A stretch of DNA of 64,000 nt from an uncultured Thermoleophilia bacterium (GTDB lineage: Bacteria; Actinomycetota; Thermoleophilia; Gaiellales; Gaiellaceae). Under the pieces are notes generated by a model. That model made no database searches. It worked only from the letters and a program-made list of their open reading frames with translations, and was not told where the DNA came from. The stretch lies in NCBI GenBank assembly GCA_963715115.1, contig CAVQRE010000004.1:4647-68646 (forward strand), written 5' to 3'. Positions 10,326 to 29,791 of this stretch are shown in pieces. Positions within the stretch are counted from its first letter, which is position 1, and each line of letters opens with the position of its first letter. The translations under genes and the position numbers were made by a program.

Positions 10326-10346
10326 GGCGATGAGCGTACCGGGCCG

Positions 10347-13434: not shown

Positions 13435-13950
13435 CTAGGCCGGCAGCGCTTCCCGAAAGATCTCGTACATGCGGTCGCCGAAGAGCACGAAGCGCACGAG
13501 GTCGAGGTCGTGACCGCGCACGGCTTCCACAGCAACCGGGGCCGCGAGCTCAGGCGGATACCCGTAGATTCCGCACGAGATCGCCGGAAAGGCGACCGAG
13601 CGCGCGCCCAGCTCGGCTGCCACCGCGAGCGAGCGCCGGTAGCAGGACGCGAGCAGGTCGGCCTCCCGCGCCCCACCGCCGCGCCACACGGGCCCGACGG
13701 TGTGGATCACCCAACGCGCGGGCAGTTCCCCGGCGGTCGTCGCCTTCGCGTCGCCGGTGTCGCACCCGCCGAGCAACCGGCACTCCGCGAGGATCTCCGG
13801 GCCACCGGCCCGGTGGATCGCTCCATCCACGCCGCCGCCGCCGAGCAGCGTGCTGTTCGCGGCGTTGACGACAGCATCGACGTCCTGCGTCGTGATGTCG
13901 CCGCGGACGACCTCGATCAAGCTCTGCTTCGACAGCCGAGCCCCCTCCAT
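13435..13950 (-). CDS. macro-domain protein (O-acetyl-ADP-ribose deacetylase, YmdB-like)
   Basis: [33 protein letters not shown] and [15 protein letters not shown] motifs in an intact 171-aa ORF. Confidence 0.9.
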
Positions 13951-14062
13951 GTCTCGACTTCAGCGTATGCCAGTTCGAGGTCGTCCGCGCTACCGCGGTC
14001 GGAGACCAGTCTCGACCGGGCCGCTAACAGCCGCCTAACACGCGCTGCGTCTCAGGCATCTC

Positions 14063-15859: not shown

Positions 15860-17862
15860 GCAGGCGTCTCCGCGAGCGCGTTCAGGTCGCGCCTCAGTTC
15901 CTTGAGCTCGTCACGCAGCTTCGCCGCATACTCGAACCGCAGCTCTTCAGCCGCCTGGAACATCTCCTCTTCGAGCGTGATCACGAGACGCTCGAGCTCC
16001 TCGCGCGACATCCCCTCGACCTTCGCGCCGCCGCGACGGCGTCGCGACGACGGCACGTGCGGCTGCTCGAGTGCGAGGAACTCCGCGATGTCCGACACGC
16101 CTTTCACGACCGAGATCGGCTTCGTCCCGTGGTCCTCGTTGTAGGCGAGCTGGGTCGTGCGGCGCCGGTTCGTCTCGTCGAGCGCTCCCTTGATCGCCTC
16201 GGTCATCTTGTCCGCGTACATCAGGACGCGGCCGTTGACGTGGCGTGCGGCCCGGCCGATCGTCTGCACGAGTGCAGTGCGGCCGCGCAGGAAGCCCTCC
16301 TTGTCGGCGTCGAGGATCGCAACCAGGGACACCTCGGGCAGGTCGAGACCTTCCCGCAGAAGGTTCACGCCGACGAGCACGTCGTACTCGCCGAGTCGCA
16401 GCTCGCGGATGATCTGGATGCGCTCGAGCGTGTCGATCTCCGAATGCAGATAGCGCGCCTTCACACCCGCCTCAAGGAGGTAGTCGGTCAGATCCTCGGA
16501 CATCTTCTTGGTCAGCGTCGTCACGAGAACGCGCTCACCGACCTCCTCGCGCCGGCGGATCTCGTTGAGCAGGTCGTCGATCTGGTTCTTGGTCGGCCGC
16601 AGCTCGACCTCCGGATCGACCAGGTAAGTCGGGCGAATCAGTTGCTCGGCGACCCGCGAGCTCTGGCGGAGCTCCCAGGCGCCCGGCGTCGCGGAGACGA
16701 ACACCATCTGCGGCACCTTCTGCAGGAACTCGTCGAACCGAAGCGGCCGGTTGTCGAGGGCCGACGGCAGACGAAAGCCGTAGTCGACGAGCGTCTGCTT
16801 CCGCGAGCGGTCACCCTCGTACATCCCGCCTATCTGGGGGACGGTCTGATGCGACTCGTCGACGAAGATCACGAAGTCGTCAGGGAAGTAGTCGAGCAGC
16901 GTGAACGGGTGCGAGCCGGCGGGCCGACCCTCGAGGATCCGCGAGTAGTTCTCGATGCCCGAGCAGAAGCCGAGCTCCTGCAATAGCTCGAGGTCGTACT
17001 CGGTGCGCTGACGAATGCGGTGCGCTTCGAGTAGACGCCCGTCCTTCTCGAACGCCGCGACCTGCTGCTCGAGCTCGCCGCGGATCTCCGACACGGCGCG
17101 CTCGATCGTCGGTTTCGACGTCACGTACTCGGTCGCCGGCCAGATCGCGAGGTTGTCGAGCTTGGAGTAGACCTCGCCGGCGAGCGGGTCGAAGTGCGTG
17201 ATCTGCTCCACCTCGTCGCCGAAGAACGAGATGCGGTAGGCCGTCTCGGCGTTCGCCGGTTGCACCTCGAGGATGTCGCCCTTCACGCGGAACCGCCCGC
17301 GGCCGAGGATCGCGTCGTTGCGGACGTACTGCGATTCGATCAGCTTGCGCAACACGGCGTCGCGGTCGTGCTCCGCCCCGACCTCGAGGTAGAGCAACCT
17401 GTCGCGCCATTCCTCCGGCGACCCGAGCCCGTAGATGCACGACACCGAGGCGACGACCACGACGTCGCGTCGCGTGAAGAGCGACGACGTCGCGGCCAGC
17501 CGGAGCCGCGCGATGTCGTCGTTCTGCGAGGAGTCCTTCTCGATGTAGAGGTCGGCCTGTGGGACGTACGCCTCGGGTTGGTAGTAGTCGTAGTACGACA
17601 CGAAGTACTCGACGGCGTTTTCGGGAAGAACTCGCGGAACTCGTTACAGAGCTGCGCCGCCAGCGTCTTGTTGTGTGCGACCACGAGCGCCGGTTTCTGC
17701 ACCTGCTCGATGATCCAGGCCATCGTCGCCGTCTTGCCGGTGCCGGTCGCACCGAGCAGCGTCTGGTAGTGCTCGCCGGCGCGCAGGCCGGAGCGATCGT
17801 CTCGATCGCGACGGCTGGTCGCCCGTCGGCGAGTACGACGCTGATGTCTGCAGCGGCGGCAC
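15856..17862 (-). CDS. uvrB: excinuclease ABC subunit B; N-terminal 170 aa broken into 3-4 frames
   Basis: The intact 581-aa C-terminal part starts [10 protein letters not shown] and ends in the UVR domain ([20 protein letters not shown]). Upstream pieces read [46 protein letters not shown]. Confidence 0.9.
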
Positions 17863-17882
17863 GCCCGAAGGGTACTGAGAGG

Positions 17883-19800
17883 TTAGTGCGCGGCCGCGAG
17901 CCGTGACCGGGCGAGTCGGACCAGATCATCCAAGGGGCGGCAGAGCGTGCACGTGTACGTGCGAACGGTTCCATCGCGCGAGGTGACCACGACGCGATAG
18001 CCGGCGGGAGACCAGCTCGGCGTCGGTCAGCAAGTCCGTCGGACCCCGGAGATAGAACAGCCTCGCACCCGTCGCCGCATTCCAGATTGCGGCGCTCGCC
18101 GGGCCTGCGGTGACGATCCAGCGTCCGTCCGCACTGAACGACGCAGCGGCAACGGTGCCCGCATGGCCGATGAGCACGTTTTCGAGTCGACGGTGGTCGA
18201 TGTCCCACTCGATCGCGTTCCTGACGGGTCCCTCCGATGTCGTTACGGCGGTCTGCCCCGATGGGGCGAAACGAGCCGACCTGACCGCACGCGGATGACT
18301 GCCGAGACGGCCCAGCGGCTTGCCGTCCGTCGACCACAGACGAACTGCGCCATCGCTTCCTCCGGTCAGCACGAGCTCACCGTTCGGCGAGATCGCCAGG
18401 CAGGTCACGCCGGGACCAACGACGAATCCCGCCCGCGAGGTCGGCCGGATCCGGTGTCCCAGACGTGAACATGGCCGCCAGTCACCGCGGCGACCTCTCG
18501 GCCGTCGGAGGTGAGCGCCAACGCCTGGACGGCCGCCGGTGCGCCGGTCATCGCTCTGGCGCTTCCCGAGGACGGGTCTGTGATCAGCACCGAGGTGCCG
18601 CGCGCCGTGGCGACCAGGCCGCCGCCGAAGGCGACAGGCCCGCCGTTGGCGAAGCCGCCGACGACGCGGCCACCCGGGACGAGCCGGAGCTTCCCACCGC
18701 TCGCCTCGACGATCGTGGTCCCTGCGAATCCTGCTGCTGCGATGGGCACCTGCTCGTCAGCCGCAACCGGCAGGGTTTGCTCGAGTCGCGTGTCCCAGAG
18801 GCGCGCCGTCCCGTCAGCACTGCCGGTGACGAGCCTTGCGCCGCCCGGCACATAGGCGGACGCGAGGTAGGCGCTGCTTCCACCGGCGAGGACGGCGGCT
18901 GACACGCCGGCCTCGATACCGGCGACCTCGAAGATGCGCGACGTGCCGTCATCGCTCGTGCTGACGACGGACGCCCCGTTTGGATCGAACCGCACCGACG
19001 TCACTGGCCCGACGTGCCCGGTGAAGTAGAACAACCTGCCCTCGCCGTGGAGCCCCCATACGCGAACGCCGTCGTCGTCGCTGCCGGTCGCCAGTTGCGA
19101 ACCGTCGGGGCTGAAGGCAACCGACGTGATCGAGCCACCCCCGTCGTCGAACGTCTTCACGACGTGACCGCTGTGAGCCGCCCACACGACAGTCGACCCC
19201 AGCGCGCTTCCGGTCGCGAGCAGCGACCCGTCCAACGAGAACGAGACAGCCTGCGTGCCGACCAAGGGCAGGCTGCGAACCAGCCGGCCCGTCGCGGAGT
19301 ACACCACGGGCGAAAGGTTTCCCTTCCCGTCGCCGCCGATCGCAGCGATCGAGCAGCGGCCGTCAGAACTGACGGCGACCCGCACGTCGAAGCGGCTGTG
19401 GGGAAAGCGACGCAGTAGTCGCCCGTCGGCGACAGGCCAACCATGCGCGAAGCCCTGCAGCCGATGCTGTGAGAACATCGCGCCCGCCGTTCGCGAAGAC
19501 GGCGTCGGCCGCGTGTGGGAGGTGAACCTCAGCGCGGCCGGAGCGCACGTCCCACACCGTCGTTGCCACACCTCCGGCGGTGAGCAGACTCGAACCGGTC
19601 GCGTCGTAGTGCACTACTTGTGTTGCGGGGCCACTATCGAGCACTCGGGCCTGCCCCGAGCTGAGATTCCAGATCACCGTGCCGCGACCACCGGATGCCG
19701 CGAGGGCCGCATGGCGTCCGTCGGGTGAGATCGCAACGTCGACGACGCGCCCTCCGACATGTGCAACCTTCCGAAGCCGTGAGGCGAGGAGGACGTCAGG
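17883..19800 (-). repeat. WD40 beta-propeller repeat region of gene B
   Basis: A recurrent 40-45-aa periodicity with motifs of the type V.SVAFSPDG..LAT.S.DGT.R.W, in four successive frames. Confidence 0.75.
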
Positions 19801-21262
19801 ACGTCCTCGGTTTGTTGGTCCGGCCTCAGCCGGGCCGCGTCGAGAGCCATCGCCAGGCTTGCCTGCGGATCCGAGGTCTGACCGAGCAGCGCCTGCGCGC
19901 TCAACTCGCCGGCACGCGCACGACGCGCCTGATCCCGCGCTTCATGTCGCTGCGCCACTGCGAAGATCGCGATCGCGCTGACGACGACGAGCGCGAGCAG
20001 AGCGGCCGCTGCCAGAACGATCAGCCGCTGCTGCCTTCTTCGAGCCCGCGCCCGCTCGGCCGCCAGCTGGTGGCGCCCCCGCCAGCCGACCACGGCCGCG
20101 CCAAGCACGTCGTGGAAGATCTCGTAGCGGTCGCCGCCACCGCCGCCCTCGTCGAGCGGCCGCACGATCCGCTCCCGCCCGAGGACGGCGAGCATCGTCG
20201 CCGCCTCGACCTCCGGAACGTGCGCGAACTGCGCGAGATCGGTGACCCGATGGGCGATCTTCGTCCCCGACGGCGTCACCAGGTGGTCGAACATGAGCGC
20301 GGCCGCGTTCTGCTCGCGCTCGTCGAGCACCGACATGGCGCGGTCGAGGTGCTCGCGGACGATCGCCCCCGCACCACCCAGCTCGGCGAGTGTCGAGGCG
20401 CGCAGCACGCGCGAGCCGCGCTCGCTTTCCTCGTTCCACAGACGTTCGAGCACGAGCTGCAGGTACGGCGGCTGGATCCGGTCGGGCTCACCCGCGACCG
20501 CCGCTTGCGCGAGCACTGCGTCGACGAGCGCCGGCTCTATCTCGACGCGCTGCTCGGCCGGCACGAGCTCGTTCCAGCGCTTGACCGGACCGACGATCGC
20601 AGCCGTCGCAGCCGCCCGATCGAGCCGGTCGAGCCGCAGGTTGTTCGCGAAGAGGTTCGGGAGGCGCGCCTTGAAGACGTCGAGCTGCGCGAGCGCGTCG
20701 TCGCGCAGCGAGAGCAGCACATTCGCGCGCAGGCGCGTGCGCTGCACCACCTCCGGGAGCTCGTGGTCGAGCGTTCCCGGCCCACCGCCCTCGTGGTACA
20801 CGAAGTACTCCTCGAGCTGGTCGAGGACGAGGTAGAGGCTTCCGTCGAGCACGCTCGTCCAGTGCTCGACGACATCGACGAGCGGCGTTCCCGGCACGGG
20901 CCGTGCCACCGGACGCTTGACCAGGGACGTGACCTCGTCGGCAATCGCCTCGGCGAGGTCTCGCGACCGGATCGTCGGCCCAGGAGGCGAACACGATCGC
21001 GGCGCCGTCCGGCCCGCGTCCGATGGCGCGGTGTCCCCCCAGCTCGCGTACACGTCGCGCCACCCCCGCGCGAAGGAGCGGAGCTCTTCGCCACACCGCT
21101 CGGCCCGTACAGGATCGTCAATCTCGCTGCGAGCAGATTCGCGACCGCGATCTCGGTCTCGCGCTCACGCCCGAAGAACAGCAGCGCGTCGAGCTCCGAC
21201 TCTCCGAACGGCGCTAGCCCACGGAACGGCGCGGCGAGCGGCGAGACACTCGTCGTGGTCAC
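17883..21262 (-). CDS. nSTAND1-type P-loop NTPase + hydrophobic helix + about 14 WD40 repeats (gene B of candidate system); about 7 frame breaks
   Basis: The GTG at 21262 overlaps the stop of the upstream ORF (GTGA). The sequence reads FRGLAPFGESELDALLFFGRERE, then Walker A-like GPSGVAKSSLLRAG, then Walker B LYLVLDQLEE. It continues with a winged-helix-like region, the helix LIVLAAAALLALVVVSAIAIFAV, and WD40 blades (SPDG..., LATGSDDDGVRVW, TGSADGTARLWD). The tail is TYTCTLCRPLDDLVRLARSRL, ending TAA at 17883-17885. Confidence 0.75.
19956..20024 (-). other. hydrophobic (predicted transmembrane) helix between the NTPase and WD40 modules
   Basis: RRRQQR-LIVLAAAALLALVVVSAIAIFAV-AQRHEARDQ: 23 uncharged residues flanked by Arg-rich segments. 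Confidence 0.6.
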
Positions 21263-22100
21263 GCCGCCCACCCCTCCGGGGCTCCGACGCTCCCGGCAAG
21301 CCCTTCGACGTACAGCTCGAGCGGCGTCTCCGCGAGCTCGACGTCGAGCCGCCGCCAGAGCTCGCGCTCGGCCGGCCCCGGCTTGGGGTGCACCGCCCAG
21401 GAGCGGTACGCCACCGGCTCGTCGCCCCACATTCGTCCGAGTACCAGCCGGAGGTGCCAGTCGCGCACCGTGTACCCGAGAAACAGGAAGTGGCTACGGC
21501 GAAGCGTCGCCGCGAGACCGACCGGGACTGCACTCGCCACGTCCGCGCGCACGAGGTAGTCGATGTAGTCGTCCTCGGTGACGACGAAGCTGTCGGAGCC
21601 GTCGGCGCCCGGGTCAAGCTGGCCGCGGATCTTGAGGATCACCGTGCGCCGGTCGAGCGAGAGCTCGGTCGCATACGTATTCGGGACCTCGATCACCCGA
21701 GCGGTCTCGTCAGGTGAGCGGTGGAGAACTTGCCGCGATCTCGCCCGGACGCGATGTAGGAGACGACGTCGACCTCTTCGCCCGCGTCGGCGAAGGCACG
21801 CTCGAGCGCCGACCCGTACGACGTTGTCACGAGCAGCTGATGTGGCGAACCGGCCGCGCGGAGCACCGGCGGAAGCGATGCGAAGAAGCGGTGGACGGCG
21901 CCCGGCCCGCTGTCGTTCCCCTGACCGCCTCGCGCAGCTCGTCGTAGAGCGGCCCGTACCCGCGCATCGTCGCCACGTACTGCGAGACGCGCGGCAATTC
22001 CGGCGGCTCGCTGCGTGGATAGTGGAAACGCTCGGCGAGGTGCGCGGCGAGACTCTCGGCGTCCTCGCCGAGGACCGGCACGACACGACCTCCGAGGATC
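21259..22100 (-). other. SIR2_2-like domain lacking canonical NAD-site residues
   Basis: GEDAE (22055-22069) replaces GAGxS, TTSYG (21813-21827) replaces TTNYD, and KIRGQ (21619-21633) replaces KLHGS. Confidence 0.6.
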
Positions 22101-22888
22101 GCCGTGGCGACGTCGCCGAGCTCGTCGACAGCCGGTGAGCCGCGCGCCCTCGTCGCCGATCCGGGCACGTCGACCTCCTGGCGAATGATCGCGCCATGCA
22201 ACTGCTTGAGCGCCGGGCCTGGCTCGATGCCGAGCTCGGCCAGGAGCATCCGCCGTGCGTCCTGGTACGCCTGAGACGCATCGCCCTGCCGACCGCTGCG
22301 GTAAAGGGCGAGCATCAGCTGCCCCCACAGGCGCTCGCGCAACGGGTTCGCGGCGACGAGGGCCTCCAGTTCCGGCACGACCGCGTCGTGCTCGCCGAGT
22401 GAGAGCTCGGCGTCGATCAGATCCTCGCGTGCAACCAGACGTAGCTCTTCGAGCCTGTTCGCCTCCGTCGCGGCGAACGATTCGTACGCGACATCGAGCA
22501 GAGCGCCGCCGCGCCAGAGCGAAAGCGCCTCCCGGAGCGCAACTGCCCGCGCAGCCGGCTCTGCAGCACGGGCGGCGCGCACCAGGTCTTCGAAGCGGAG
22601 CGCGTCGACGTGCGCGCGCTCGACGCGGAGGACGTATCCAGGAGCGCGAGTGACGAGGTTGTCGCCGACCACGCGCCGGAGCTTTGCGACGGCGTTGTGG
22701 AGCGACGTGACGGCGTTGCGGGGCGGCGATCCTGCCCACAGGTCGTCGACGAGGCGGTCGGTGGCGACCACCTCGTTCGCGTGCAGCAGGAGCAGGATCA
22801 ACAGCGCGCGCAGCTGCTGGGCCGCCACTTCGAGCGGGCGGCCTCCGTCCTCGACCTCGAGCGGCCCCAGGACGCGGTATTCGGGCAT
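21259..22888 (-). CDS. SARP-type regulator (OmpR wHTH + BTAD) fused to a degenerate SIR2_2-like domain (gene A of candidate system); 2 frame breaks
   Basis: The N-terminus MPEYRVLGPLEV...LLLLLHANEVVATDRLVDDLW...GYVL is a Trans_reg_C-type wHTH. Residues 96-245 form a BTAD (ALSLWRGGAL...RLEELRL...PLRERLWGQLMLALYRSGRQGDA...Y...LAELGIEPGP). The rest is SIR2_2-like: GRVVPVLGEDAES, HRFFASLP, LLVTTSYGSALE, ILKIRGQ, VVTEDDYIDYL, FLFLGYTVRDWHLR. The stop is TGA at 21259-21261. Confidence 0.75.
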
Positions 22889-22923
22889 GCGGACTACTTG
22901 TAGACACCCGTCTCGTACGGCCG

Positions 22924-23241
22924 CTACGGGGCGCCCTCCAGGCCCCGGACTGCGACGGCGTGCGTCGACGAGGCAATCCGCCCGTCGAAGGTCGCGAGCG
23001 TGAGCGTGATCACGAACGCGCCAGGCCCTGCGTACCGGTGCGTCGGCGACGACCCGGTCGCCGTCCCCCCGTCGCCGAAGTCCCAGGCACGCCAGGCCAC
23101 GCCGACACCGTCCGGGTCGGAGGACGAGTCGAAGAGCTCGATCGTCTGGCCCGCGCGCGGCAGGCGCGGGCGAAATGTGAAGTCGGCGATCGGTTGCTCC
23201 CTTCGGCTCGTCGCTGGCACCACGGTCAGTGCAGCGTCCAC
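22924..23241 (-). CDS. stand-alone PKD-domain protein without signal peptide
   Basis: FTFRP..P.AGQTIELFDSSSDPDG...WAWDFGDGGTATGSSPTHRYAGPGAFVITLTL matches the PKD consensus. There is no N-terminal hydrophobic segment. The ORF ends 36 nt upstream of the SARP-SIR2 start, on the same strand. Confidence 0.7.
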   Translation of the reverse strand: MDAALTVVPATSRREQPIADFTFRPRLPRAGQTIELFDSSSDPDGVGVAWRAWDFGDGGTATGSSPTHRYAGPGAFVITLTLATFDGRIASSTHAVAVRGLEGAP

Positions 23242-23275
23242 CAGGGCGCTAACAGCTCGCTAACTACGGGGAGTG

Positions 23276-23304
23276 GGTGCCTGGCACGAAGGGTGCCGGG
23301 CACC
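23276..23304 (-). terminator. stem-loop downstream of the USP gene (copy 1 of the GTGCCTGGCAC palindromic element)
   Basis: GGTGCCTGGCAC-gaagg-GTGCCGGGCACC forms a 12-bp stem with one mismatch or wobble. It lies between the USP stop (23317) and the PKD start (23241). Confidence 0.5.
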
Positions 23305-23316
23305 GGTTCATGAAGG

Positions 23317-23760
23317 CTACGGAACCGTGATCACGTCGCACCCGGCGGCGCGCTGCACCTCGCCGCTGACGTCCCCGCCGAGCAGCCTGCCGAAGAAGCC
23401 GTGGTGGTGCTCCCCGATCACGATCAGGCTCGCACCGCGCTCCTTCGCGATGCCGATGATCTCCCCGGCCGGCTCACCGGCCGACCAGACGTAGTCCGCC
23501 GTCAGCCCGGCCGCCTCGACTCGCTGGCGCGCCTCGGCGAGAACCGGCTCGAGCTCCGGCGGCTCGACGAGCGGCATCATCTGCACGGGGCTGTCGTCGA
23601 GCGTGCCGTAGTTCTGCAGGCCTTCCGGGTTCAGCGGCATCTCGGCGATCGCGACGACCACGAGACTCGACCCGGACTTCTGCGCCTCCTCGATCGCACG
23701 CCCCAGGGCGTGCTGCGCCGATTCGTGCCCGTCGTACCCCACGATGATCGGCCCGGCCAT
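23317..23760 (-). CDS. universal stress protein (UspA family)
   Basis: The internal ATG gives MAGPIIVGYDGHESAQHAL. The sequence carries ASLIVIGEHHHGFFGRLLGGDVSGEVQRAAGCDVITV, the G-x2-G-x9-G(S/T) ATP motif region. Confidence 0.85.
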   Translation of the reverse strand: MAGPIIVGYDGHESAQHALGRAIEEAQKSGSSLVVVAIAEMPLNPEGLQNYGTLDDSPVQMMPLVEPPELEPVLAEARQRVEAAGLTADYVWSAGEPAGEIIGIAKERGASLIVIGEHHHGFFGRLLGGDVSGEVQRAAGCDVITVP

Positions 23761-23816
23761 TCGCCGATCGTAACGAGGACGGCCTTCGGCAGTGATACGT
23801 TCGGCCTCGGCCAGGC

Positions 23817-26800
23817 ATGGACTACCGGCTCCTTGGTCCGCTGGAGGCGCGCGCGGGTGACCGCGTTGTGCCACTCGGCGGCCCGAAGCAGCGCGCCGTG
23901 CTCGCCGTCCTCCTCCTCCGGGCCGGCGAGACCGTCTCCGTCGACACGCTGATCGACGAGGTCTGGGGCGCGCGGCCGCCTGTCAACGTCACGGCGACGC
24001 TGCACAACTGCGTGTCCCGCCTGCGCAAAGCGATCGGCGCGGAGACGATCGAGACGCACCCTCCCGGTTACGTCCTCCACGCCCGCGACGAGGAGATCGA
24101 CGCGCGGCGCTTCGAGCGCGCGCTCGTTTCCGCGCAGGCTCTCGAGCCGGCGGAGCGGGCGGCGGCGCTCCGCGAGGCACTCTCGTCTTGGCGGGGAGCG
24201 GCTCTCGCCGACCTGGCCTTCGAGCCGTTCGCGGAAGCCGAGGCCGCGCGGCTCGAGGAGCTGCGACTGGTTGCGCTCGAGGAGCGGATCGACGCCGAGC
24301 TCGCACTCGGCCGCCACGAGCAGCTCGTCGCCGAGCTCGAGGCGCTGGTCGCGCGCCACCCGTTGCGCGAGCGTCTGCGCCGCGAGCAGATGCTGGCCCT
24401 CTACCGCGCGCGGCGAAAGCCGGAGGCGCTCCAGGCGTTCCAGGACACGCGGCTCGCGCTGATCGACGAGCTCGGCCTAGAGCCGAGCGATCAGCTACGC
24501 GAGCTCGAGCGGAAGATGCACCGTGACGATCCGTCGCTCGAGTCCGCGACCGAGATCCGCGCCGAGAGCGCGCCGCGCGAGGTGCGCCGTCCCGCTGTCG
24601 TGCTGTGCGTCGAGCCCGAGGCCGGAGACGACACCGACCCGGAGACCGCGGAGAGCGAGCTCGGCGACTCCATCGCCGCAGTTCGAGCCGCGGTCGAACG
24701 GCACGGCGGCTCCGTGCAGCAGCTCGCCGGCGACGAGATGCTCGCGTTCTTCGGGCTGCCGTCGGCACACGAGGACGACGCCCTACGCGCCCTGCGTGCG
24801 GCGATCGAGCTGCGTGACGAGCTCACGGCATTGAACACGCCGGCCCGCGTCGGCCTGGCCGCCGGCGAGGTGGTAGCGGGCACGGATGCCTTGCCGCGGG
24901 CAGGCCCGGCCGTGCGACGAAGCCGCCGGCTGAAGGAGCTGGCCGCTCCGGGAGCGATCGTGCTCGGCGATGCAATCCTCGCGCTCGTCGGCGGTGCGGT
25001 CGATGCCGTGCCGGTCGACGTCTCGGGCTCGGCGTTCCGACTGCTGCGCCTCGATTCGGATGCGCCGGCAGTCGCACGCCGGCTCGACGCACCGCTCGTC
25101 GGCCGCGAGCATGAGCTGGCGCGGATCGAGGCGGCCGTGGTGAAGAGCATTGAGCGCCGCCGCCCCGTCCGCGTCGTGCTCTCGGGCGAGCCCGGCATCG
25201 GCAAGACGCGCCTCGCACGGGAGTTCGCGGCCTGGCATCCCGACGCCCGCGTGCTGACCGGGCGCTGCGTCGCCTACGGCGAGGCCGCGCGCTTCCTGCC
25301 GCTCGCGCAGCTCGTCACGGGCGGGGCCGACCTCGTCGGCCGCGCCGTCGTTCCCACGGAGCTCGCGCCGCTGCTCGCGATGACGGCGCCGACCGTTCCG
25401 AATCCTGACGTCTTCCGTGCGACGCGGCTTCTGCTGGAAGCGGTCGCAGAGCATGGGCCGGTGGTCGTCGAGCTCGAGGACCTGCACTGGGGCGCACCCG
25501 GCCTGCTCGACCTGGTCGAGTACCTCGCCGCCTGGGGCGGCGAGCTGCCGCTGCTCGTGCTCTGCGTCGCGCGACCGGAGCTACTCGACGCGCGGCCGGG
25601 CTGGCGCGAGGACGAGCTCCCGGTCGGCCCGCTCGCGCCGGACGAGGCGCTCGCGCCTCGTCCGCGAGCGCGAGCCCGAGGTGACGGCCGGGCGCGCCGA
25701 TGCCGTCATCCGCGCCGGCGAGGGGAACCCGCTCTTCCTCGAGCAGCTCGTCGCGTTCGAAGGTGACGAGCTGCCGCCGACGATCGAGACGCTGCTCGCG
25801 AGCCGGCTCGACCGGCTCGAGCCGCAGCAACGGGCGCTGCTCGGCCACGCCGCCGTGGCGGGCCGCGAATTCTGGCGCGGCGCCGTCGAGGCGCTGACGG
25901 CTGACGATCCGCGCGTCGTCGCAAGCTCCCTTTCGGCGCTCGTCCGCGGACGGCTCGTGCAGCCGGCGACCTCGTCGCTCGCCGGCGAGGACGCCTTCGT
26001 CTTCCACCACGCCCTGATTCGCGACGCCGCGTACGCCTCGGTGCCGAAGACGGCGCCGTGCCGGGTCCACATGAGCGGCTCGCTCGCTGGCTCGACCCGC
26101 ACGCCGAGAGCAGCGACGACGTGGTCGGCTTCCACCTCGAGCAGGCGTACCGCTACGGCGAGGAGCTCGGCCGCGGCGACGAGAGCGCTCGCGCGGGAGG
26201 CGGCAACGCGTCTCGGGAGCGAGCGGCATCGCAGCGCTGAAGCGAATGACGATCCCGACGACGATCGACCTGCTCTCGCGTGCGACGCCTTGCTACCCGC
26301 CGAGCGATCCAGAGCGGCTCGCGCTCGCGTGCGAGCTCGGGACCGCGCTGAAGGCAACCGGCGACTCGCGCGTCGTCGAGGAGATGCTCGCCGACGGTCG
26401 CCGAGACTGCGTCGCGATGCGGCGACCGGCCGGCATCGAGCTGCGCGCGCGTCTCGAGCTCGTCTGGCCGCGTGTGCTGCGCGGCGCCGAGCTCGCTCGA
26501 CGATGCGCTGCGATTCGTCGAGCAGGCGCTCGACGAGCTGGACGGCGCCGACGACCGCACGCTCGAGCGGGCGTGGTTCTGCCTCGCGGCGCTCCGTGGC
26601 CGGCTGCAGTTCCGGCACGCGGCGAGCGAGGAGGCGGCGCTCCGAGCGCTCGACCACGCGCGCGCAGCGGGTTACGCGCCGGCGCAACTGTTTCGGCGTG
26701 CTTGCCAACGATGCGTGCGACGGCCCACGCCCGGTGCCGAAGGCATCGAGCGCTGCGAGAGAGCTGCTCGCGGAAGCGGACCGAGGTTCCGAGGCGAGGA

Positions 26801-27335
26801 TTCGGCTGTCGCTCGCGCACCTGTCGCGATGCGCGGCGACTTCGCGGGCGCCAGACGGCGAGCTCGACATCGGCGCAGGCGCTCATCGACGAGTTCGGCA
26901 CCCGGCAGCGCCACACGCGGGACGAGGCCATGCTCAAGCCGAGATCACGTGGCTGACCGAGAGATGCAGCCATTGCGCGAGAATGTCTTGCGCGATGCCG
27001 CTCGCGCAGTCCTCGAGCGCGAGGGCGACACTGCCTGGTCGCGACGATCTCGGCGCAGCTCGCGGAGCTGCTCGCCGATGCCGACCGTCCGGAGCAAGCA
27101 CTAGCTCCAGCTGACCGAGCAGGCCCGCGAGCGCGTCGTAGCCGGGCGACGTCCGGACCGAGGCCGCGTGGCGGCGGGCTCACGCGGTCGTCGGCGGCGC
27201 AAGACGGCGAGGTGCTCGCCCGCGAAGCGGTCGCGCTGCTCGAAGCGACCGACGAGCTCGAACGAGCAGGCGAAGGCGCACCTGGCCCTCGCGCACGTTC
27301 TCGAGCCGGCCGGGCGCGACGACGAAGCGACGTAG
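23817..27335 (+). CDS. large SARP-family protein: wHTH + BTAD + degenerate class III cyclase-like domain + AAA_16 ATPase + TPR-like C-terminus; several frame breaks after about 25650
   Basis: The first 612 aa are intact: MDYRLLGPLE...GYVL (wHTH), BTAD to about aa 245, and a cyclase-like AGDEMLAFFGLPSAHEDDALRALRAAIELRDEL...ARVGLAAGEVV region. It also has LVGREHEL, Walker A GEPGIGKT (25185-25208) and VVVELEDLHW. Downstream pieces (GEGNPLFLEQL, LLASRLDRL, FHHALIRDAAY, HERLARWL, helical repeats) fall in other frames. The first in-frame TAG is at 27333; coding-like sequence continues to the TAG at 27405-27407. Confidence 0.75.
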
Positions 27336-27486
27336 GCGAAAGCGTCCGCGGTGCAGCTCCTGCGCTAGAAGGAGAACGAGGCGCTGCTCGCCCGCATCGA
27401 GGAGTAGGTGGAGAGGACCCAACTCCGGGACGTCCAGGTGCAAAGGCGGTGGGGGAGCGCCGAAGCGCTCCCCACCGACGGCGGCC

Positions 27487-27664
27487 TCAGCAGCCGCCGC
27501 CGCAGCCGCCGCCCGGCATGGGCGCCGATGCCGAGCCCGACGACGTTGCGTCTGCCGACCGCGACCTGCGTGGCCGCCGAGAGGCCGATCGCCACGGCGA
27601 GGATCGCGGCGGCGATGGCGGACCGGCGAATGCCGGTCCCCTGAACGTGCGTGTGATTGGACAT
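27487..27664 (-). CDS. small membrane protein, possibly with a GGGCGGGC tail (frame uncertain)
   Basis: MSNHTHVQGTGIRRSAIAAAILAVAIGLSAATQVAV has one TM helix. After about aa 48 a -1/+1 shift would give ...MPGGGCGGGC and TGA at 27487, whereas the listed frame runs on as Arg-rich, non-coding-looking sequence. Confidence 0.3.
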
Positions 27665-27739
27665 AACCGCAACGTCCGGCCGGCCACAAACGGCTCGACA
27701 ACGGACGGCACACGCAAGACCAACTGAGTCCGAACACGG

Positions 27740-27767: not shown

Positions 27768-27792
27768 TTGACCCCCGCTCAACCTTCGAAGG

Positions 27793-28846
27793 TCAGACGC
27801 CGACCCAGCCCGTGTGGTTGTGCACCGAGAACCGAAGCGACGAGCTCGAGCGGTTCCCGCGCACGTCCGCCGCGGTGACGACCAGGCGGTACACGTTGTC
27901 CGCCAGCCGGAGCGTGTTCAGCATCCCGAGCCGGAAGCGGAAGCAGCCGGGCTGTCCCCACGAGTAGTGCGGGCCGAACACCGACATGTTCTGGAACGTG
28001 CCCTTCGCGTAGTAGCGCCAGAACAGACCGTTCGACGGGATCGTGTGCCGTGCGTCCCAGGCAGTGGTCTCGGGGATCTTGACCTTGCCGTTCCAGGTCT
28101 CGACGTGCCAGGTGATCAGCGCCGGCGTCATCGGCATGTCGTGCCACTCGCCGGGCACCGGCACGGTCGGCGTGTCGTACGCCTCGGCGACGATGTTCAC
28201 CGAGCCGCGGATGAAGTTCGTCATCTGCGCCGGGCCGTCGTCACCCGTGCGCAGCTCGATCGAGGTGACCTCCGGCTTCGTCGAGTCGCGGTACGGCGTG
28301 AGGTGGCCGGGCAGCAGCGGATCGGTGACGACGCCGCCGTCGACCTCGGTCAGATGAACGTGGCCGGTGCCGCGGATGATGTGCCCGAGCACGGTGCTGT
28401 CGGTCGTCGACCTGCTGGCCGAGCTTCACGGTCGGCGCGATGTGCCAGTACTCGAAACGGTCGCCGTTCCCCGACGAGACGAAGACGCGGTCGGCGTTGA
28501 GGCTCATCACCGTGCCGTCGGCGACCGGGTAGACGGCGGTGCCGTCGGGCGCCGAGATGTCGACGCCCTGGTGGAACGAGAACGAGCCGGCCGGGTGCAT
28601 GAGCGTCGCGTGGGTCGGCGGGTCGAGGTAGACCGTCCGCGGGTCGCCGAAGCCGCCGCGGATAGGATGCTGCCGGTTGAACGGTGCGACCGGCCAGCCG
28701 TACGAGCGCCCCGCCTGCTTGACGGACGCATGTGCGGCCTCCGAGTGGAAGCCGCTCGATGCCGACGCGATCAGCGCGGCGAGCAGGAGCGGCGCGACGG
28801 CCGTGCGCAGGCCCCTGAGGTGTGTATGAGCGGTGAAGTTGGTCAT
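27793..28846 (-). CDS. secreted M23-family metallopeptidase with C-terminal Ig-like domain; one frame break near 28390
   Basis: Signal peptide MTNFTAHTHLRGLRTAVAPLLLAALIASASS. The M23 core reads FHQGVDISAPDGTAVYPVADGTV...YWHI, then GHIIRGTGHVHL in the next frame. Confidence 0.8.
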
Positions 28847-29791
28847 GTCGAGCACCGTCGAAGGGGCCCGAAACCGCTCGGTCACCGGCGACTAACGGCG
28901 CGCCAACGGCTGTTCCTGCTGCTCCTCGCGGCGGCGCTCGTGCTCCCGGGCCGCGCAGCCGCGAGCCCGCTGATGCGGGTGGAGCTCCACCTCGCGCCCG
29001 GCGCGCGCTCGACCCCGCACCTGCTCCTGCTCACGCTCGGGGGGCCGATCTACTGCGACCAGCTCAGGAACCTCGCCCGCAACGTTCACGCCTCGCTCGC
29101 GTGCACCGACTACGGGCCGAACCGCTACGAGGTCGCAGGCGGTCGCGCGGGTCGCCGTGAGGACTGGGGCGACCCGCGCTACCTCGCGCAGGTCGCCCAG
29201 CTTCCGGCGCGCTTGCGCGCGCAGGGGATCCGGATCTCGAAGCTGGTCGTCGTGGGGGTGTCGTACTCCGGTTTCGCCGACGCGGAGCTCGTGGCGTCAC
29301 ACCCGGAGGTGGGCGCCGACGCGCTGGTCGTCGTCGACAGCTACCTCGACCTCGCGGCACGCTTCGACGCACTCCCTGCGCACCACGAGACGCGGACCGA
29401 GATGGAGACGGTGCTCGGCGGTACGCCGGCCCAGGCATCGGCCGCCTACCGCTCGCGCTCGCCGAGCCATCATCTCCCCGGCCTCGCCGACGCAATCCGG
29501 CACGGGACGCATCTCGTGGTCGTCTGGAGCACGAGCGCCGGCGAGCGGCACGAGTTCAACGGCGCCACCTGCTCGCGGCTCGCGAACGCCGAATGGCTCG
29601 CCCGACTGGCAGGAGCCCTCGGCCAACCAGTAACCGGCTATGTGACCAGGCTGCCGCACGCCCACGCATTGTGGGACCGCGGACAGGGGCTGCTCGCGCT
29701 TGCCGGGATCGCGCCGGCGAGTAAGCCGCTCGACGCGCACGCCGTGACGTTCAGGCCGGGCGCGTCGCCGCCGCGCGACAGCTACTGCTGA
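28826..29791 (+). CDS. secreted alpha/beta-hydrolase-like protein (start uncertain)
   Basis: Signal-like LFLLLLAAALVLPGRAAA, a GVSYSG nucleophile-elbow-like motif, and HLVVVWS...H late in the protein. The ATG at 28826 is the first canonical in-frame start, but it overlaps the divergent M23 start. Confidence 0.45.
   Translation: MSGEVGHVEHRRRGPKPLGHRRLTARQRLFLLLLAAALVLPGRAAASPLMRVELHLAPGARSTPHLLLLTLGGPIYCDQLRNLARNVHASLACTDYGPNRYEVAGGRAGRREDWGDPRYLAQVAQLPARLRAQGIRISKLVVVGVSYSGFADAELVASHPEVGADALVVVDSYLDLAARFDALPAHHETRTEMETVLGGTPAQASAAYRSRSPSHHLPGLADAIRHGTHLVVVWSTSAGERHEFNGATCSRLANAEWLARLAGALGQPVTGYVTRLPHAHALWDRGQGLLALAGIAPASKPLDAHAVTFRPGASPPRDSYC

What the first reader, a model, noticed from the sequence alone, without database searches (positions are those of the whole stretch)
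17883..23241. Candidate undescribed STAND-type conflict/signalling module: orphan PKD, then SARP(wHTH-BTAD)-SIR2-like, then nSTAND1 NTPase-TM-WD40
Three co-directional minus-strand genes sit between a stem-loop (23276-23304) and uvrB.
1. A 105-aa PKD domain with no signal peptide.
2. An OmpR-type winged helix plus BTAD (the SARP DNA-binding/activation head) fused to a SIR2_2-like domain.
3. An nSTAND1-type NTPase that starts at a GTG overlapping gene 2's TGA. It has the FGRE motif, a P-loop and Walker B DQLEE, followed by a hydrophobic helix, about 14 WD40 blades and a CxxC tail.

SIR2 + STAND NTPase + repeat sensor is the logic of Avs5-type antiphage proteins and other NLR-like systems. I know of no described system that combines a SARP DNA-binding head, a SIR2-like domain and an nSTAND1-WD40 partner. 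The module could be an NLR-like sensor with a transcriptional output, or a decayed immune gene co-opted as a regulator. A paralogous SARP-AAA-TPR giant gene lies divergently next to it.
Basis: partly seen in the sequence, partly recalled or inferred. Interest (0 to 1): 0.85.

Follow-up and report, generated by a model that had tools for sequence, protein, structure and literature searches.

The report
SARP regulator paired with membrane STAND receptor
A transcription activator carrying a dead sirtuin-like domain is always encoded next to a membrane-anchored NLR-like ATPase with WD40 sensors in one group of soil actinobacteria, which looks like an immune-type module turned into a core gene-regulation pathway.

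Summary
The domain calls are right. PKD (22924-23241), SARP+SIR2-like (21259-22888) and nSTAND1-TM-WD40 (17883-21262) are real minus-strand genes. About 8 frame breaks interrupt them; these are most likely assembly indels, because intact 99% and 79-93% identical counterparts exist and uvrB is also broken.

The core is a two-gene pair, not a trio. In 77 of 80 Gaiellaceae/Thermoleophilia species genomes the nSTAND1 gene starts directly after SARP-SIR2. uvrB lies downstream in 34 of 50 loci with enough flank. PKD occurs only in the window's sub-clade. The locus is a fixed chromosomal one, not a mobile defence island.

The SIR2-like domain belongs to a clade that is generally coupled to nSTAND1-TM-WD40 genes and carries swappable N-terminal outputs (none, cyclase, kinase, HTH, TIR, CHAT, SARP). 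Stand-alone members keep the NAD-site motifs (97%). SARP-fused ones have lost them (0%), and the window has lost all three.

Arrays of CTAAC/GTTAG repeats with an 11-bp period (SARP-box geometry) lie upstream of the operon. They usually sit exactly 44 nt from a divergent secreted-hydrolase gene. The window has three such boxes, before PKD, the M23 peptidase gene and the Macro gene.

Best reading: an NLR-like membrane receptor with a transcriptional output, derived from a conflict-type module. No description of it was found.

The parts
23248..23264 (.). Operator-like box GCTAAC-N5-GCTAAC (on the gene strand: GTTAGcgagctGTTAGcg). It is two repeats with an 11-bp period, immediately upstream of PKD.
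   Evidence: 2 hits in the window against 0.06 expected; 3 hits against 0.22 expected. The box is conserved in L001 and in the 83%-identity relative L004 although the flanks diverge. The same repeat type lies upstream of SARP-SIR2 in 48 of 75 loci, against 0.8% of control windows, and only at an 11-nt period.
22924..23241 (-). Small PKD-domain protein (105 aa, no signal peptide). It is the first gene of the operon in this sub-clade only.
   Evidence: Pfam PKD_4 1.7e-14. GC3 is 0.90-0.92 in this frame. Found only in L001, L002/L004 and L007 among 80 loci.
22897..22906 (-). TGTcTACAAG, a copy (with a 1-nt insertion) of the conserved TGTTACAA element that lies 6-10 nt before the SARP-SIR2 start codon. 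It looks like an extended -10 for a leaderless mRNA.
   Evidence: Upstream alignments of 78 loci. L001 has TGTTACAAG at this position.
21259..22888 (-). SARP-SIR2-like regulator (about 542 aa). The wHTH+BTAD part spans about 22150-22888 and the SIR2_2-like domain about 21259-22125. There are two frame breaks: a 2-nt insertion near 21921 and a 1-nt deletion near 21722.
   Evidence: (99% identical to the intact P0001). Active-site motifs are degenerate: VLGED in place of GAG, TTSYG in place of TTNYD, and KIRGQ in place of KxHG.
17883..21262 (-). nSTAND1 NTPase - TM helix - double WD40 propeller - CxxC tail (about 1120-1125 aa). The GTG start overlaps the upstream TGA. Six frame breaks lie near 21080, 20965, 19790, 19450, 18410 and 18020.
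   Evidence: Pfam nSTAND1 4e-21 and WD40 1e-28. The stitched protein aligns end to end with the intact P0510 (1125 aa, 79% identity). The AF2 model of a 90% homologue shows P-loop, helical and winged-helix domains followed by a long helix. Its Foldseek matches are ORC/Cdc6, CED-4 and Apaf-1.
21083..21106 (-). Walker A, reading GPSGVAKS. The invariant Gly before Lys is Ala here (GCG, against GGG in L001).
19956..20024 (-). Predicted single transmembrane helix LIVLAAAALLALVVVSAIAIFAV, with an Arg-rich N-terminal flank.
   Evidence: A Kyte-Doolittle 19-mer score of 2.3-2.9 occurs at the same position in nearly all orthologues and in the generic pairs of L086. DNA homology with the 95.5%-identical L001 ends at 20023, exactly at the start of the helix.
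17940..17951 (-). CTLC of the conserved C-terminal tail DGTVRTYxCxxCG..L..LA..RL.
   Evidence: Present in 54 of 61 complete orthologues.
28892..28907 (.). Second operator-like box (GTTGGcgcgccGTTAG on the gene strand), 45 nt upstream of the ATG of the M23 peptidase gene.
   Evidence: The spacing matches the fixed 44-nt box-to-ATG distance seen in 24 of 32 loci.
27793..28846 (-). Secreted M23 peptidase gene, the strongest predicted target. Its product starts MTNFTAHTH followed by a signal peptide. One frame break lies near 28400.
   Evidence: Divergent genes at other loci share this N-terminus and encode M23, DMFA2_C, Polysacc_deac_1 or abhydrolase proteins.
14024..14039 (.). Third box (GTTAGgcggctGTTAG on the gene strand), about 100 nt upstream of the Macro-domain gene (about 13447-13920, minus strand).
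   Evidence: It is not conserved in L002.
23276..23304 (-). Stable hairpin without a U-tract, between the Usp stop codon and the box. It is probably the Usp terminator.
   Evidence: RNA fold of -21.3 kcal/mol.
23817..27398 (+). Neighbouring AfsR-like large SARP (SARP-AAA_16-TPR, about 1190 aa, two frame breaks). It lies divergent to Usp (23317-23760, minus strand).
15868..17862 (-). uvrB, the conserved downstream neighbour. It is also frameshifted near its 5' end.

Best explanation
The locus encodes a two-protein signalling pair.

**Protein 1** is a SARP-type transcription activator (OmpR-type winged helix plus BTAD). Its C-terminal regulatory domain has a SIR2 fold that has lost its NAD-site residues.

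**Protein 2** is translationally coupled to protein 1. It is an nSTAND1 (NLR-like) NTPase anchored by one transmembrane helix, and its roughly 14-blade WD40 region probably faces outward.

**Origin.** The pair descends from a broader class of modules of the form [variable output domain - SIR2-like] + [nSTAND1 - TM - WD40]. In that class the SIR2 domain keeps its catalytic motifs.

**Proposed mechanism.**
1. A ligand binds the WD40 propellers.
2. The cytoplasmic NTPase domains oligomerise in an NTP-dependent way.
3. The SIR2-like domain docks on that assembly. This clusters or releases the SARP domains.
4. The SARP domains bind tandem CTAAC/GTTAG repeats spaced 11 bp apart and activate transcription.

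**Predicted targets.** In most genomes the target is a divergent gene for a secreted hydrolase (M23 peptidase, polysaccharide deacetylase or a DMFA2_C protein) plus the operon itself. In this window the candidates are the M23 peptidase gene, the PKD-led operon and possibly the Macro-domain gene.

**Shown:** domain identities and folds, obligate gene pairing, core-genome conservation, loss of catalytic motifs, and the repeat arrays with their fixed geometry.

**Inferred:** physical contact between the SIR2-like domain and the NTPase, the direction of signalling, the membrane topology, the ligand, and that this SARP rather than another factor binds the boxes.
For: **Pairing**
- The nSTAND1 gene starts directly after SARP-SIR2 in 77 of 80 species-representative loci at 53-99% identity. 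The three exceptions are two contig ends and one relocation of 7.6 kb.
- The two genes share a 4-nt GTGA overlap.
- The same SIR2-like clade is followed by an overlapping nSTAND1 gene in four other settings: stand-alone (L085, L086 twice, Nonomuraea L087), kinase-fused (L084) and cyclase-fused, the last next to a Crp-type regulator.
- Single-chain nSTAND1-HEAT-SIR2 fusions exist.

**Output swapping**
- Among 87 representatives the C-terminal SIR2_2 domain is fused to BTAD (10), TIR (10), CHAT (8), HTH_31 (4), Pkinase (3), cyclase (3) and EAD7 (3).

**Loss of catalysis**
- The GxG, Asn and His motifs are all present in 97% of 119 stand-alone or cyclase-fused members and in 0% of 118 SARP-fused members.
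- The window's Arg aligns on the catalytic H146 of KomC.
- The rest of the domain is strongly conserved.

**DNA-binding head**
- The model superposes on the AfsR SARP domain in its transcription-initiation complex with TMt 0.91.

**Operator**
- There are 84 repeat pairs at an 11-nt period and 0-2 at every other period from 7 to 16 nt. They occur in 48 of 75 loci against 0.8% of 3967 control windows.
- The nearest repeat is exactly 44 nt from the divergent gene's ATG in 24 of 32 loci.
- SARPs are known to bind direct repeats spaced 11 or 22 bp apart (PMC10936776).
- The window has 3 boxes where 0.22 are expected, and all three lie in promoter regions.

**Receptor features**
- The TM helix is conserved.
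- The WD40 region evolves much faster than the rest and is sometimes swapped. L039 against L041 gives SARP-SIR2 97%, NTPase 91% and C-terminal region 38%. The window against L001 gives 95% against 29%, with the breakpoint at the TM helix.
- The predicted targets are secreted proteins.

**Precedents**
- AfsR is a SARP-NOD-TPR protein in one chain that is autoinhibited and activated by ATP.
- From my own knowledge: EmbR is a SARP-FHA protein controlled by the membrane kinase PknH.
Against: - There is no experimental or structural evidence that the SIR2-like domain contacts the NTPase.
- A transcription factor tethered to a membrane receptor needs either release or DNA looping to the membrane.
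- The extracytoplasmic location of the WD40 domain rests only on hydropathy and charge bias.
- A neighbouring AfsR-like SARP, or some other factor, could be the protein that binds the boxes.
- The boxes before PKD and Macro do not have the canonical 44-nt geometry, and the Macro box is absent in L002.
- About 62% of SARP-fused members keep the His and a minority keep the Asn. Some residual chemistry in relatives is therefore not excluded.
- In the window the Walker A Gly is Ala and the NTPase gene carries 6 indels. This particular copy might not work.
Confidence: 0.55

Rival explanations
1. The locus is a working NLR-like anti-phage or abortive-infection system. nSTAND1-WD40 senses an invader and switches on the SIR2 domain to destroy NAD+. 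The SARP head only autoregulates the operon or tethers the effector to DNA.
For: - The SIR2 fold is closest to the defence NADases KomC, DSR2, ThsA and SIR2/HerA.
- The broader SIR2-like clade keeps its catalytic motifs and is fused to TIR, CHAT and EAD domains typical of conflict systems.
- Tandem duplicated pairs lie next to a CHAT gene in L086.
- The WD40 region turns over quickly.
- Avs5 combines SIR2, a STAND NTPase and repeats (PMC12931631).
Against: - The window protein lacks the GxG loop, the Asn and the catalytic His. None of the 118 SARP-fused members keeps all three.
- The locus is conserved, apparently single-copy and syntenic with uvrB, not a variable island.
- PADLOC finds no system.
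- No relative occurs in phage records or on true plasmids.
- A TM helix separates the sensor from the cytoplasm.
- Fixed-register operator arrays lie in front of secreted-hydrolase genes.
Confidence: 0.1
2. The two genes are only co-transcribed neighbours. SARP-SIR2 is a self-contained regulator whose SIR2-like domain senses a metabolite such as NAD+, ADP-ribose or a related nucleotide. nSTAND1-WD40 has a separate role.
For: - Large SARPs carry their own regulatory domains.
- A Macro-domain (ADP-ribose-handling) gene with a box upstream lies nearby.
- In L002 the nSTAND1 gene has moved 7.6 kb away from SARP-SIR2.
Against: - The SIR2-like clade is paired with nSTAND1 in almost every context examined, whatever its N-terminal domain. 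It is also fused to nSTAND1 in single chains.
- The phosphate-binding GxG loop is replaced by G-E/A-D, which argues against dinucleotide binding.
- Even in L002 the NTPase gene stays within the same 10-kb neighbourhood, next to the predicted target M23.
Confidence: 0.12
3. The components are the same but the sign is reversed. The membrane NTPase holds SARP-SIR2 inactive at the membrane and releases it on signal (an anti-activator or sequestration model), rather than assembling it into an active array.
For: - The evidence is the same as for the best explanation.
- A soluble DNA-binding activator paired with a membrane-anchored partner is easier to reconcile with release than with tethering.
- AfsR is autoinhibited by its own NOD-TPR part.
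Against: Nothing in the sequence distinguishes the sign of regulation. Defence SIR2 domains such as ThsA, KomC and DSR2 act as assemblies (entries listed), which favours activation by clustering.
Confidence: 0.13
4. In this particular genome the module is a decaying pseudogene cluster. The frame breaks and the Walker A Gly-to-Ala change are real.
For: - There are 8 frame breaks in 5 kb. The NTPase gene has the highest density, with 6.
- The invariant P-loop Gly is replaced.
- uvrA (2.8 kb) in the same window has none.
Against: - uvrB, the M23 gene and the AfsR-like gene are frameshifted at a similar rate.
- About half of the indels are homopolymer length changes.
- Apart from the frame breaks the reading frames contain no premature stops, and intact counterparts exist at 99% (P0001) and 79-93% (P0510) identity.
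- Related long-read MAG contigs show the same kind of breaks.
Confidence: 0.08

Closest known systems
AfsR-type 'large' SARPs (SARP-NOD-arm-TPR; S. coelicolor AfsR)
   Same: - Both have an OmpR-type winged helix plus BTAD head. The sequence is 38% identical and the model superposes with TMt 0.91.
- Both link a SARP to a STAND-type NTPase and a repeat sensor.
- Both use binding sites made of direct repeats with an 11-bp period.
   Different: - Here the NTPase and sensor are on a separate polypeptide.
- The NTPase belongs to the nSTAND1 clade rather than the AfsR NOD.
- The sensor is WD40 behind a TM helix rather than cytoplasmic TPR.
- The SARP carries a SIR2-fold domain that AfsR lacks.
- The boxes sit further from the gene's own promoter than the AfsR afs box does.
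Avs5 (SIR2-nSTAND3-TPR antiviral STAND)
   Same: It combines a PF13289 SIR2 domain, a novel STAND NTPase and C-terminal repeats.
   Different: - Avs5 is a single chain, whereas this is two genes.
- Avs5 uses nSTAND3, whereas this uses nSTAND1.
- Avs5 has TPR or Sel1 repeats, whereas this has WD40.
- Avs5 has no TM helix and no DNA-binding head.
- Avs5 has an active NADase, whereas here the catalytic residues are lost.
- Avs5 is a defence gene, whereas this is a core-genome locus.
Defence SIR2 NADases (KomC of Kongming, ThsA of Thoeris, DSR2, SIR2/HerA)
   Same: The fold of the C-terminal 290 aa matches (Foldseek E 4e-8 to 1e-5, TMt up to 0.70). The conserved TEDDY and FLFLGY..DW motifs are shared.
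   Different: - The catalytic His is Arg here (it aligns on KomC H146).
- The Asn is Ser.
- The GAG loop is GED.
- The partner is an nSTAND1 NTPase, not HerA, a TIR protein or a nucleotide-signal module.
EmbR/PknH of Mycobacterium tuberculosis (SARP-FHA regulator controlled by a membrane sensor kinase)
   Same: - Both have a SARP head plus a C-terminal protein-interaction or receiver domain (EmbR Foldseek E 4.5e-16).
- Both have a membrane-anchored partner with an external sensor domain.
- Both have cell-envelope targets. The EmbR/PknH biology is from my own knowledge.
   Different: The receiver is a SIR2 fold rather than FHA. The partner is a STAND NTPase rather than a Ser/Thr kinase.
nSTAND1 conflict-system NTPases (Kaur, Iyer, Burroughs, Aravind 2021; Pfam PF20703)
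   Same: - The NTPase domain matches PF20703 above threshold.
- It has C-terminal WD40 repeats.
- One homologue is annotated by IMG as 'conflict system STAND superfamily ATPase/WD40'.
   Different: The described nSTAND1 systems use EAD adaptors and N-terminal effectors. In the texts I searched I found no mention of the coupling to a separate SIR2-like protein, the TM helix or a SARP output.

Membership tests
SARP family transcription activators | N-terminal OmpR-type winged-helix DNA-binding domain followed by a BTAD | tested here: met
   Pfam Trans_reg_C 4e-6 and BTAD 3.6e-44. NCBIfam matches residues 4-248 to the AfsR model. Foldseek gives 8k60_J TMt 0.91, rmsd 1.7 A.
SARP family transcription activators | Binds tandem direct repeats spaced 11 or 22 bp apart at target promoters | tested here: inconclusive
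   Candidate repeat arrays with a strict 11-nt period and fixed register are found. Binding itself was not tested, and the geometry relative to the -10 is not the canonical 8 bp.
SIR2_2 / defence-type sirtuin NADases | SIR2 Rossmann-type fold | tested here: met
   Pfam SIR2_2 4.6e-12. Foldseek matches KomC, DSR2 and ThsA.
SIR2_2 / defence-type sirtuin NADases | Catalytic His (KxHG), Asn (TTNYD) and the GxG NAD-phosphate loop | tested here: not met
   The window has KIRGQ, TTSYG and VLGED. None of 118 SARP-fused members has all three motifs, against 97% of stand-alone relatives.
STAND NTPases, nSTAND1 clade (PF20703) | Profile match above the gathering score, with the N-terminal FFGRE motif and Walker B D-Q-[FL]-E-E | tested here: met
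   nSTAND1 scores 76.5 bits against a cut-off of 27.1. The motifs are visible.
STAND NTPases, nSTAND1 clade (PF20703) | Intact Walker A GxxxxGK[ST] | tested here: inconclusive
   The window reads GPSGVAKS. All complete orthologues have G-K. I cannot tell whether this is an error or a real substitution.
STAND NTPases, nSTAND1 clade (PF20703) | NOD architecture (P-loop, helical and winged-helix domains) followed by superstructure-forming repeats | tested here: met
   The AF2 model has pLDDT 87.5. Foldseek matches ORC/Cdc6, CED-4, Apaf-1 and Sr35. WD40 repeats follow.
Avs5 (AVAST type 5) | Single polypeptide of SIR2, nSTAND3 and TPR-like sensor with an active NADase | tested here: not met
   This is two genes with nSTAND1, WD40 and a TM helix, and the SIR2 site is degenerate. 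No Avs model hit in PADLOC.
Avs5 (AVAST type 5) | Protection against phage | not testable with these tools
   This needs expression and phage challenge.
AfsR-type large SARP | SARP, NOD and TPR in one chain | tested here: not met
   The SARP-SIR2 protein has no P-loop domain, and the NTPase is encoded separately. The neighbouring gene at 23817-27398 does fit this family.
Mobile defence island | Variable presence and location, with defence or mobile genes as neighbours | tested here: not met
   The pair is adjacent in 77 of 80 loci, uvrB is downstream in 34 of 50, and the flanks hold uvrA, uvrB and housekeeping genes. It is absent from phage and plasmid records.
PKD domain proteins | PKD/Ig-like beta-sandwich domain, usually extracytoplasmic | tested here: met
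   The domain is met: PKD_4 scores 54 bits against a cut-off of 27. The usual secretion signal is absent, because a stop lies 6 codons upstream of the start.

The most novel reading that the evidence does not exclude
A previously unrecognised class of membrane-anchored, NLR-like receptors in Actinomycetota has the form nSTAND1 NTPase - TM helix - outward WD40 propellers. It uses a SIR2-fold domain on a separate, translationally coupled protein as a universal adaptor. Different outputs plug into that adaptor: SARP or HTH for transcription, cyclase, kinase, TIR or CHAT. In Gaiellaceae one such immune-type module lost SIR2 catalysis. It was fixed in the core genome as a pathway that switches on secreted cell-wall hydrolases, such as M23 peptidase, in response to an external cue.
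Probability: 0.3. Interest if true: 0.8.

Novelty: new variant of a known kind. Interest (0 to 1): 0.62.

Why it matters
If the model holds, it gives a natural example of an NLR/STAND-type sensor whose output is transcription through a separate partner protein. The catalytically intact and the domesticated versions both exist in related organisms. That makes two questions testable.

1. How do immune-type STAND modules become ordinary regulators?
2. Can a SIR2 fold serve as an assembly or adaptor domain once its NADase chemistry is gone?

The analysis also supplies concrete material for experiments:
- a candidate operator (CTAAC/GTTAG repeats with an 11-bp period);
- predicted targets (M23 peptidase and other secreted hydrolases);
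- a cultured organism, Nonomuraea gerenzanensis, that carries the generic SIR2-like + nSTAND1 pair.

For annotation, thousands of soil-metagenome proteins now labelled 'SARP family activator' or 'hypothetical' could be grouped into one two-gene system.

Tried and rejected
- **PADLOC and NCBIfam scans.** I scanned the three proteins and the generic relatives. Only domain-level hits appeared (ThsA, Dsr2 and PDC-S25 SIR2 parts; the AfsR SARP part). No system or family matched.
- **Literature searches.** I searched nSTAND1; SARP+SIR2+STAND; BTAD+SIR2; nSTAND+SIR2; and SARP+SIR2-like. No description of the pair turned up. Most BTAD hits were journal-code artefacts. Kaur 2020 does not mention SIR2 or SARP in its text.
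- **Rfam and tRNA scans of the window.** Only one tRNA-Ala was found, and nothing in the locus.
- **The TTGAGC repeat.** This second 11-nt repeat occurs in one sub-clade. In the window it matches only at chance level.
- **Source record.** The look-up through the 100%-identical fragment P0391 found nothing on record.
- **Canonical SARP geometry.** I looked for a 3' repeat 8 bp from a -10 element at the window's boxes. I could not identify a convincing -10 for the PKD or Macro boxes and left this open.
- **uvrB linkage.** I considered that it might mean a DNA-damage role. Conserved gene order by descent explains it equally well, and no box lies before uvrB.
- **L001 C-terminal difference.** I considered that it might be a chimeric contig. 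This cannot be excluded, but similar NTPase/WD40 discordance occurs in other genome pairs.
- **Pfam on window frames.** Scans of the Macro and Usp window frames failed because of coordinate or frame problems. I replaced them with tblastn using L002 proteins.

Full report

- The 105-aa PKD protein is at 22924-23241 (PKD_4, E 1.7e-14).
- The next protein starts at the ATG at 22888. It has Trans_reg_C (4e-6) and BTAD (3.6e-44), then, after two frame shifts, SIR2_2 (4.6e-12).
- The third protein starts at the GTG at 21262, which overlaps the preceding TGA as GTGA. It matches nSTAND1 (4e-21) and carries FFGRE, a P-loop and LVLDQLEE.
- After the NTPase come a 23-residue hydrophobic helix (19956-20024), about 690 residues of WD40 repeats (1e-28) and a CTLC tail.

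I count eight frame breaks.

**2. Are the frame breaks decay or error?**

My frame-corrected SARP-SIR2 sequence is 99% identical to an intact 542-aa protein, P0001. My stitched 1120-aa NTPase aligns end to end with an intact 1125-aa protein, P0510 (79% overall, about 93% in the NTPase).

Compared with L001, which is 95.5% identical at the DNA level, about half of the indels are homopolymer length changes. uvrB, the M23 peptidase gene and the AfsR-like gene in the same window are also frameshifted, although uvrA is not.

Assembly error is the simplest reading. Real decay of this copy cannot be excluded, especially because the invariant Walker A glycine reads alanine here.

**3. What is the unit?**

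A scan of one genome per GTDB species found 258 loci. The best 80 are all Gaiellaceae or Thermoleophilia MAGs, at 53-83% identity and essentially one per assembly.

- In 77 of these 80, an nSTAND1 gene begins directly after SARP-SIR2. Two exceptions are contig ends.
- The third exception is L002/L004, where the NTPase gene has moved 7.6 kb, to just upstream of the M23 peptidase gene.
- uvrB lies downstream on the same strand in 34 of 50 loci with enough flank.
- PKD is present only in the window's sub-clade: the window, L001, L002/L004 and L007.

The conserved unit is therefore a two-gene operon at a stable chromosomal position. PKD is a lineage-specific addition. The locus is not a variable defence island. 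No relative is found in phage records or on true plasmids.

**4. The SIR2-like domain**

An AF2 model of P0001 (pLDDT 82) splits into two parts. The first is a SARP domain that superposes on AfsR in its transcription-initiation complex (TMt 0.91, rmsd 1.7 A). The second is a C-terminal domain with the fold of the defence sirtuins KomC, DSR2, ThsA and SIR2/HerA.

Sequence alignment places the window's Arg (KIRGQ) on the catalytic His146 of KomC. The TTNYD Asn is Ser, and the GAG loop is GED.

A HMMER search of 1.8 billion representative proteins with this domain alone found 572 clusters at E<1e-30. In that wider family the domain is always C-terminal and the N-terminal partner varies. Among 87 representatives the partners were BTAD/SARP (10), TIR (10), nSTAND1 (9, several of them likely fused gene calls), CHAT (8), HTH_31 (4), Pkinase (3), cyclase (3) and EAD7 (3).

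All three catalytic motifs are present in 97% of 119 stand-alone or cyclase-fused members and in none of 118 SARP-fused members. The rest of the domain is highly conserved in the SARP-fused set. In this lineage the domain is therefore a constrained pseudo-enzyme.

**5. The link to nSTAND1 is general**

An nSTAND1 gene follows each of these SIR2-like proteins, usually with the same 4-nt overlap:

- a kinase-SIR2 protein (L084);
- stand-alone SIR2-like proteins (L085, two tandem pairs in L086, and Nonomuraea gerenzanensis L087);
- a cyclase-SIR2 protein, which sits next to a Crp-type cNMP-binding regulator.

Single-chain nSTAND1-HEAT-SIR2 fusions also exist.

This is Rosetta-stone and neighbourhood evidence that the SIR2-like domain and the nSTAND1 NTPase work together. 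The N-terminal domain of the SIR2 protein appears to be the exchangeable output.

**6. The NTPase partner**

A strongly hydrophobic 19-mer (Kyte-Doolittle 2.3-2.9), flanked on its N-terminal side by an Arg-rich stretch, sits about 400 residues into nearly every orthologue. It is also present in the generic pairs.

An AF2 model of the N-terminal 507 residues of a 90% homologue (pLDDT 87.5) shows P-loop, helical and winged-helix domains. One continuous helix of about 90 residues follows and contains the TM segment. Foldseek finds ORC/Cdc6, then CED-4, Apaf-1 and the plant NLR Sr35.

With the NTPase necessarily cytoplasmic, a single TM helix would put the WD40 propellers outside. This is an inference.

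The WD40 part evolves far faster than the rest and is sometimes replaced.
- L039 against L041: SARP-SIR2 97%, NTPase 91%, C-terminal region 38%.
- The window against L001: 95% against 29%, with DNA homology ending at 20023, exactly at the start of the TM helix.

The C-terminal tail DGTVRTYxCxxCG..L..LA..RL is nevertheless kept in 54 of 61 complete orthologues.

**7. A candidate operator and regulon**

The 250 nt upstream of SARP-SIR2 contain arrays of two to five pentamers, C(T/C)AAC or the inverse GTTAG/ATTAG.

- There are 84 pairs at an 11-nt period and 0-2 at every other period from 7 to 16 nt.
- Pairs occur in 48 of 75 loci, against 0.8% of 3967 control windows.
- In most loci a divergent gene starts about 100 nt upstream. 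The nearest repeat is exactly 44 nt from its ATG in 24 of 32 cases.
- These divergent genes encode different secreted proteins: M23 peptidase, DMFA2_C, polysaccharide deacetylase and an alpha/beta hydrolase. They share a conserved 5' end and the N-terminus MATNTH.
- SARPs are known to bind direct repeats spaced 11 or 22 bp apart (PMC10936776).

A conserved TGTTACAA lies 6-10 nt before the SARP-SIR2 start codon, preceded at 17 nt by T(A/G)TTCA. This looks like a promoter for a leaderless mRNA.

In the window the pattern occurs three times where 0.22 are expected, each time in a promoter region.
- 23248-23264 is directly before PKD. It is conserved in L001 and in the 83%-identity relative L004.
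- 28892-28907 is 45 nt before the ATG of the M23 peptidase gene, whose product starts MTNFTAHTH plus a signal peptide.
- 14024-14039 is about 100 nt before the Macro-domain gene. It is not conserved in L002.

**8. How it most likely works**

The best-supported model is an NLR-like receptor with a transcriptional output.

1. The WD40 domain perceives a ligand.
2. The nSTAND1 domains oligomerise with NTP.
3. The SIR2-like domain of the partner docks on that assembly.
4. The SARP heads then bind the repeat arrays and activate secreted-hydrolase genes and the operon itself.

The opposite sign, sequestration followed by release, cannot be told apart from this by sequence. The catalytically intact relatives with TIR or CHAT outputs look like conflict systems. 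The SARP-fused Gaiellaceae version looks like a domesticated descendant of such a system.

Rival readings are less well supported. They are an active NADase defence system, two unrelated neighbouring genes, and a pseudogene relic. The reasons are given under each rival.

**9. Comparison with known systems, and novelty**

- AfsR combines a SARP with a NOD and TPR in one chain.
- Avs5 combines SIR2, nSTAND3 and TPR in one chain.
- EmbR/PknH pairs a SARP-FHA regulator with a membrane sensor kinase.

None of these has this combination. This system has four distinguishing features: the split into two genes, the nSTAND1 clade, the TM helix with WD40 repeats, and a dead SIR2 fold as the regulatory domain of a SARP.

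PADLOC, NCBIfam and the literature I could search have no entry for it. IMG labels one NTPase homologue 'conflict system STAND superfamily ATPase'.

I rate it a new variant of known kinds (STAND signalling and SARP regulation), of moderate to high interest. The main caveat is that every mechanistic step beyond co-occurrence and motif content is inferred.

Noticed in passing
window 15868-28900: Frame breaks are not confined to the finding. uvrB has 2 near its 5' end, the M23 peptidase gene has 1 (near 28400) and the AfsR-like SARP gene has 2 (25656, 26070). uvrA (10565-13399) and Usp have none. About half of the indels relative to L001 are homopolymer length changes, a typical long-read assembly error pattern.
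   Followed up: partly
L002/L004 (GCA_035473635.1, DATIOD010000038.1), L002 550-3900: In this 83%-identity relative the nSTAND1-WD40 gene is not between SARP-SIR2 and uvrB. It sits 7.6 kb away, directly upstream of the M23 peptidase gene, between the equivalents of window 28968 and 28911. This looks like a clean relocation of a single gene.
   Followed up: partly
L005-L083, about 100 nt upstream of SARP-SIR2; window 28820-28860: Unrelated secreted proteins (M23, DMFA2_C, polysaccharide deacetylase, alpha/beta hydrolase) share a conserved 5' region. It reads CGACGGTGGCCGC-ATG-GCT-ACC-AAC-ACC-CAC and gives the N-terminus MATNTH before the signal peptide. The promoter, leader and first codons seem to behave as a cassette onto which different genes are placed.
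   Followed up: partly
L044, L061, L062, L066, L067, L070, L071, L074-L077, L080-L083 (upstream regions): A second direct repeat with an 11-nt period, CTTGAGCgggtCTTGAGC, lies between the CNAAC array and SARP-SIR2 in one sub-clade. Several of these loci also have an AfsR-like SARP gene upstream. The window has no such repeat above chance.
   Followed up: partly
L086 8001-16440 (ENA ERZ25039494 contig_11055, 1.35 Mb): Two tandem copies of the generic pair lie here, a few genes downstream of a CHAT-domain gene: SIR2-like 317 aa with nSTAND1-TM-WD40 1158 aa, then SIR2-like 302 aa with nSTAND1-TM-WD40 1029 aa. Both SIR2 proteins keep the GAG, TTNYD and KxHG motifs.
   Followed up: partly
JGI 3300047160 contig (no DNA held), genes at 7073-13000: A cyclase-SIR2 fusion (503 aa) with an overlapping nSTAND1-WD40 gene (1163 aa) sits divergent to a Crp-type regulator (cNMP_binding + HTH_Crp_2). 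In this variant the output may reach transcription through a cyclic nucleotide.
   Followed up: no
L087 5968-9020 (Nonomuraea gerenzanensis NZ_LT559118.1, near 7.49 Mb): A cultured actinomycete carries a stand-alone SIR2-like gene with intact motifs. An overlapping nSTAND1 gene follows, and its C-terminus has several hydrophobic helices instead of WD40 repeats. The stretch is unannotated in the copy held, and the record is filed as a plasmid although it is 11.85 Mb long.
   Followed up: partly
window 14024-14039 and about 13447-13920: A repeat box lies upstream of a Macro-domain (ADP-ribose-handling) gene located between uvrB and uvrA. This is intriguing next to a SIR2-derived regulator, but the box is absent at the same place in L002.
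   Followed up: partly
window 21083-21106: The Walker A motif reads GPSGVAKS (codon GCG). L001 has GGG, and every complete orthologue has Gly at this position. It is either a base error or an inactivating substitution.
   Followed up: partly
window 42185-42257: tRNA-Ala (GGC) on the minus strand is the only Rfam or ARAGORN hit in the 64-kb window.
   Followed up: no
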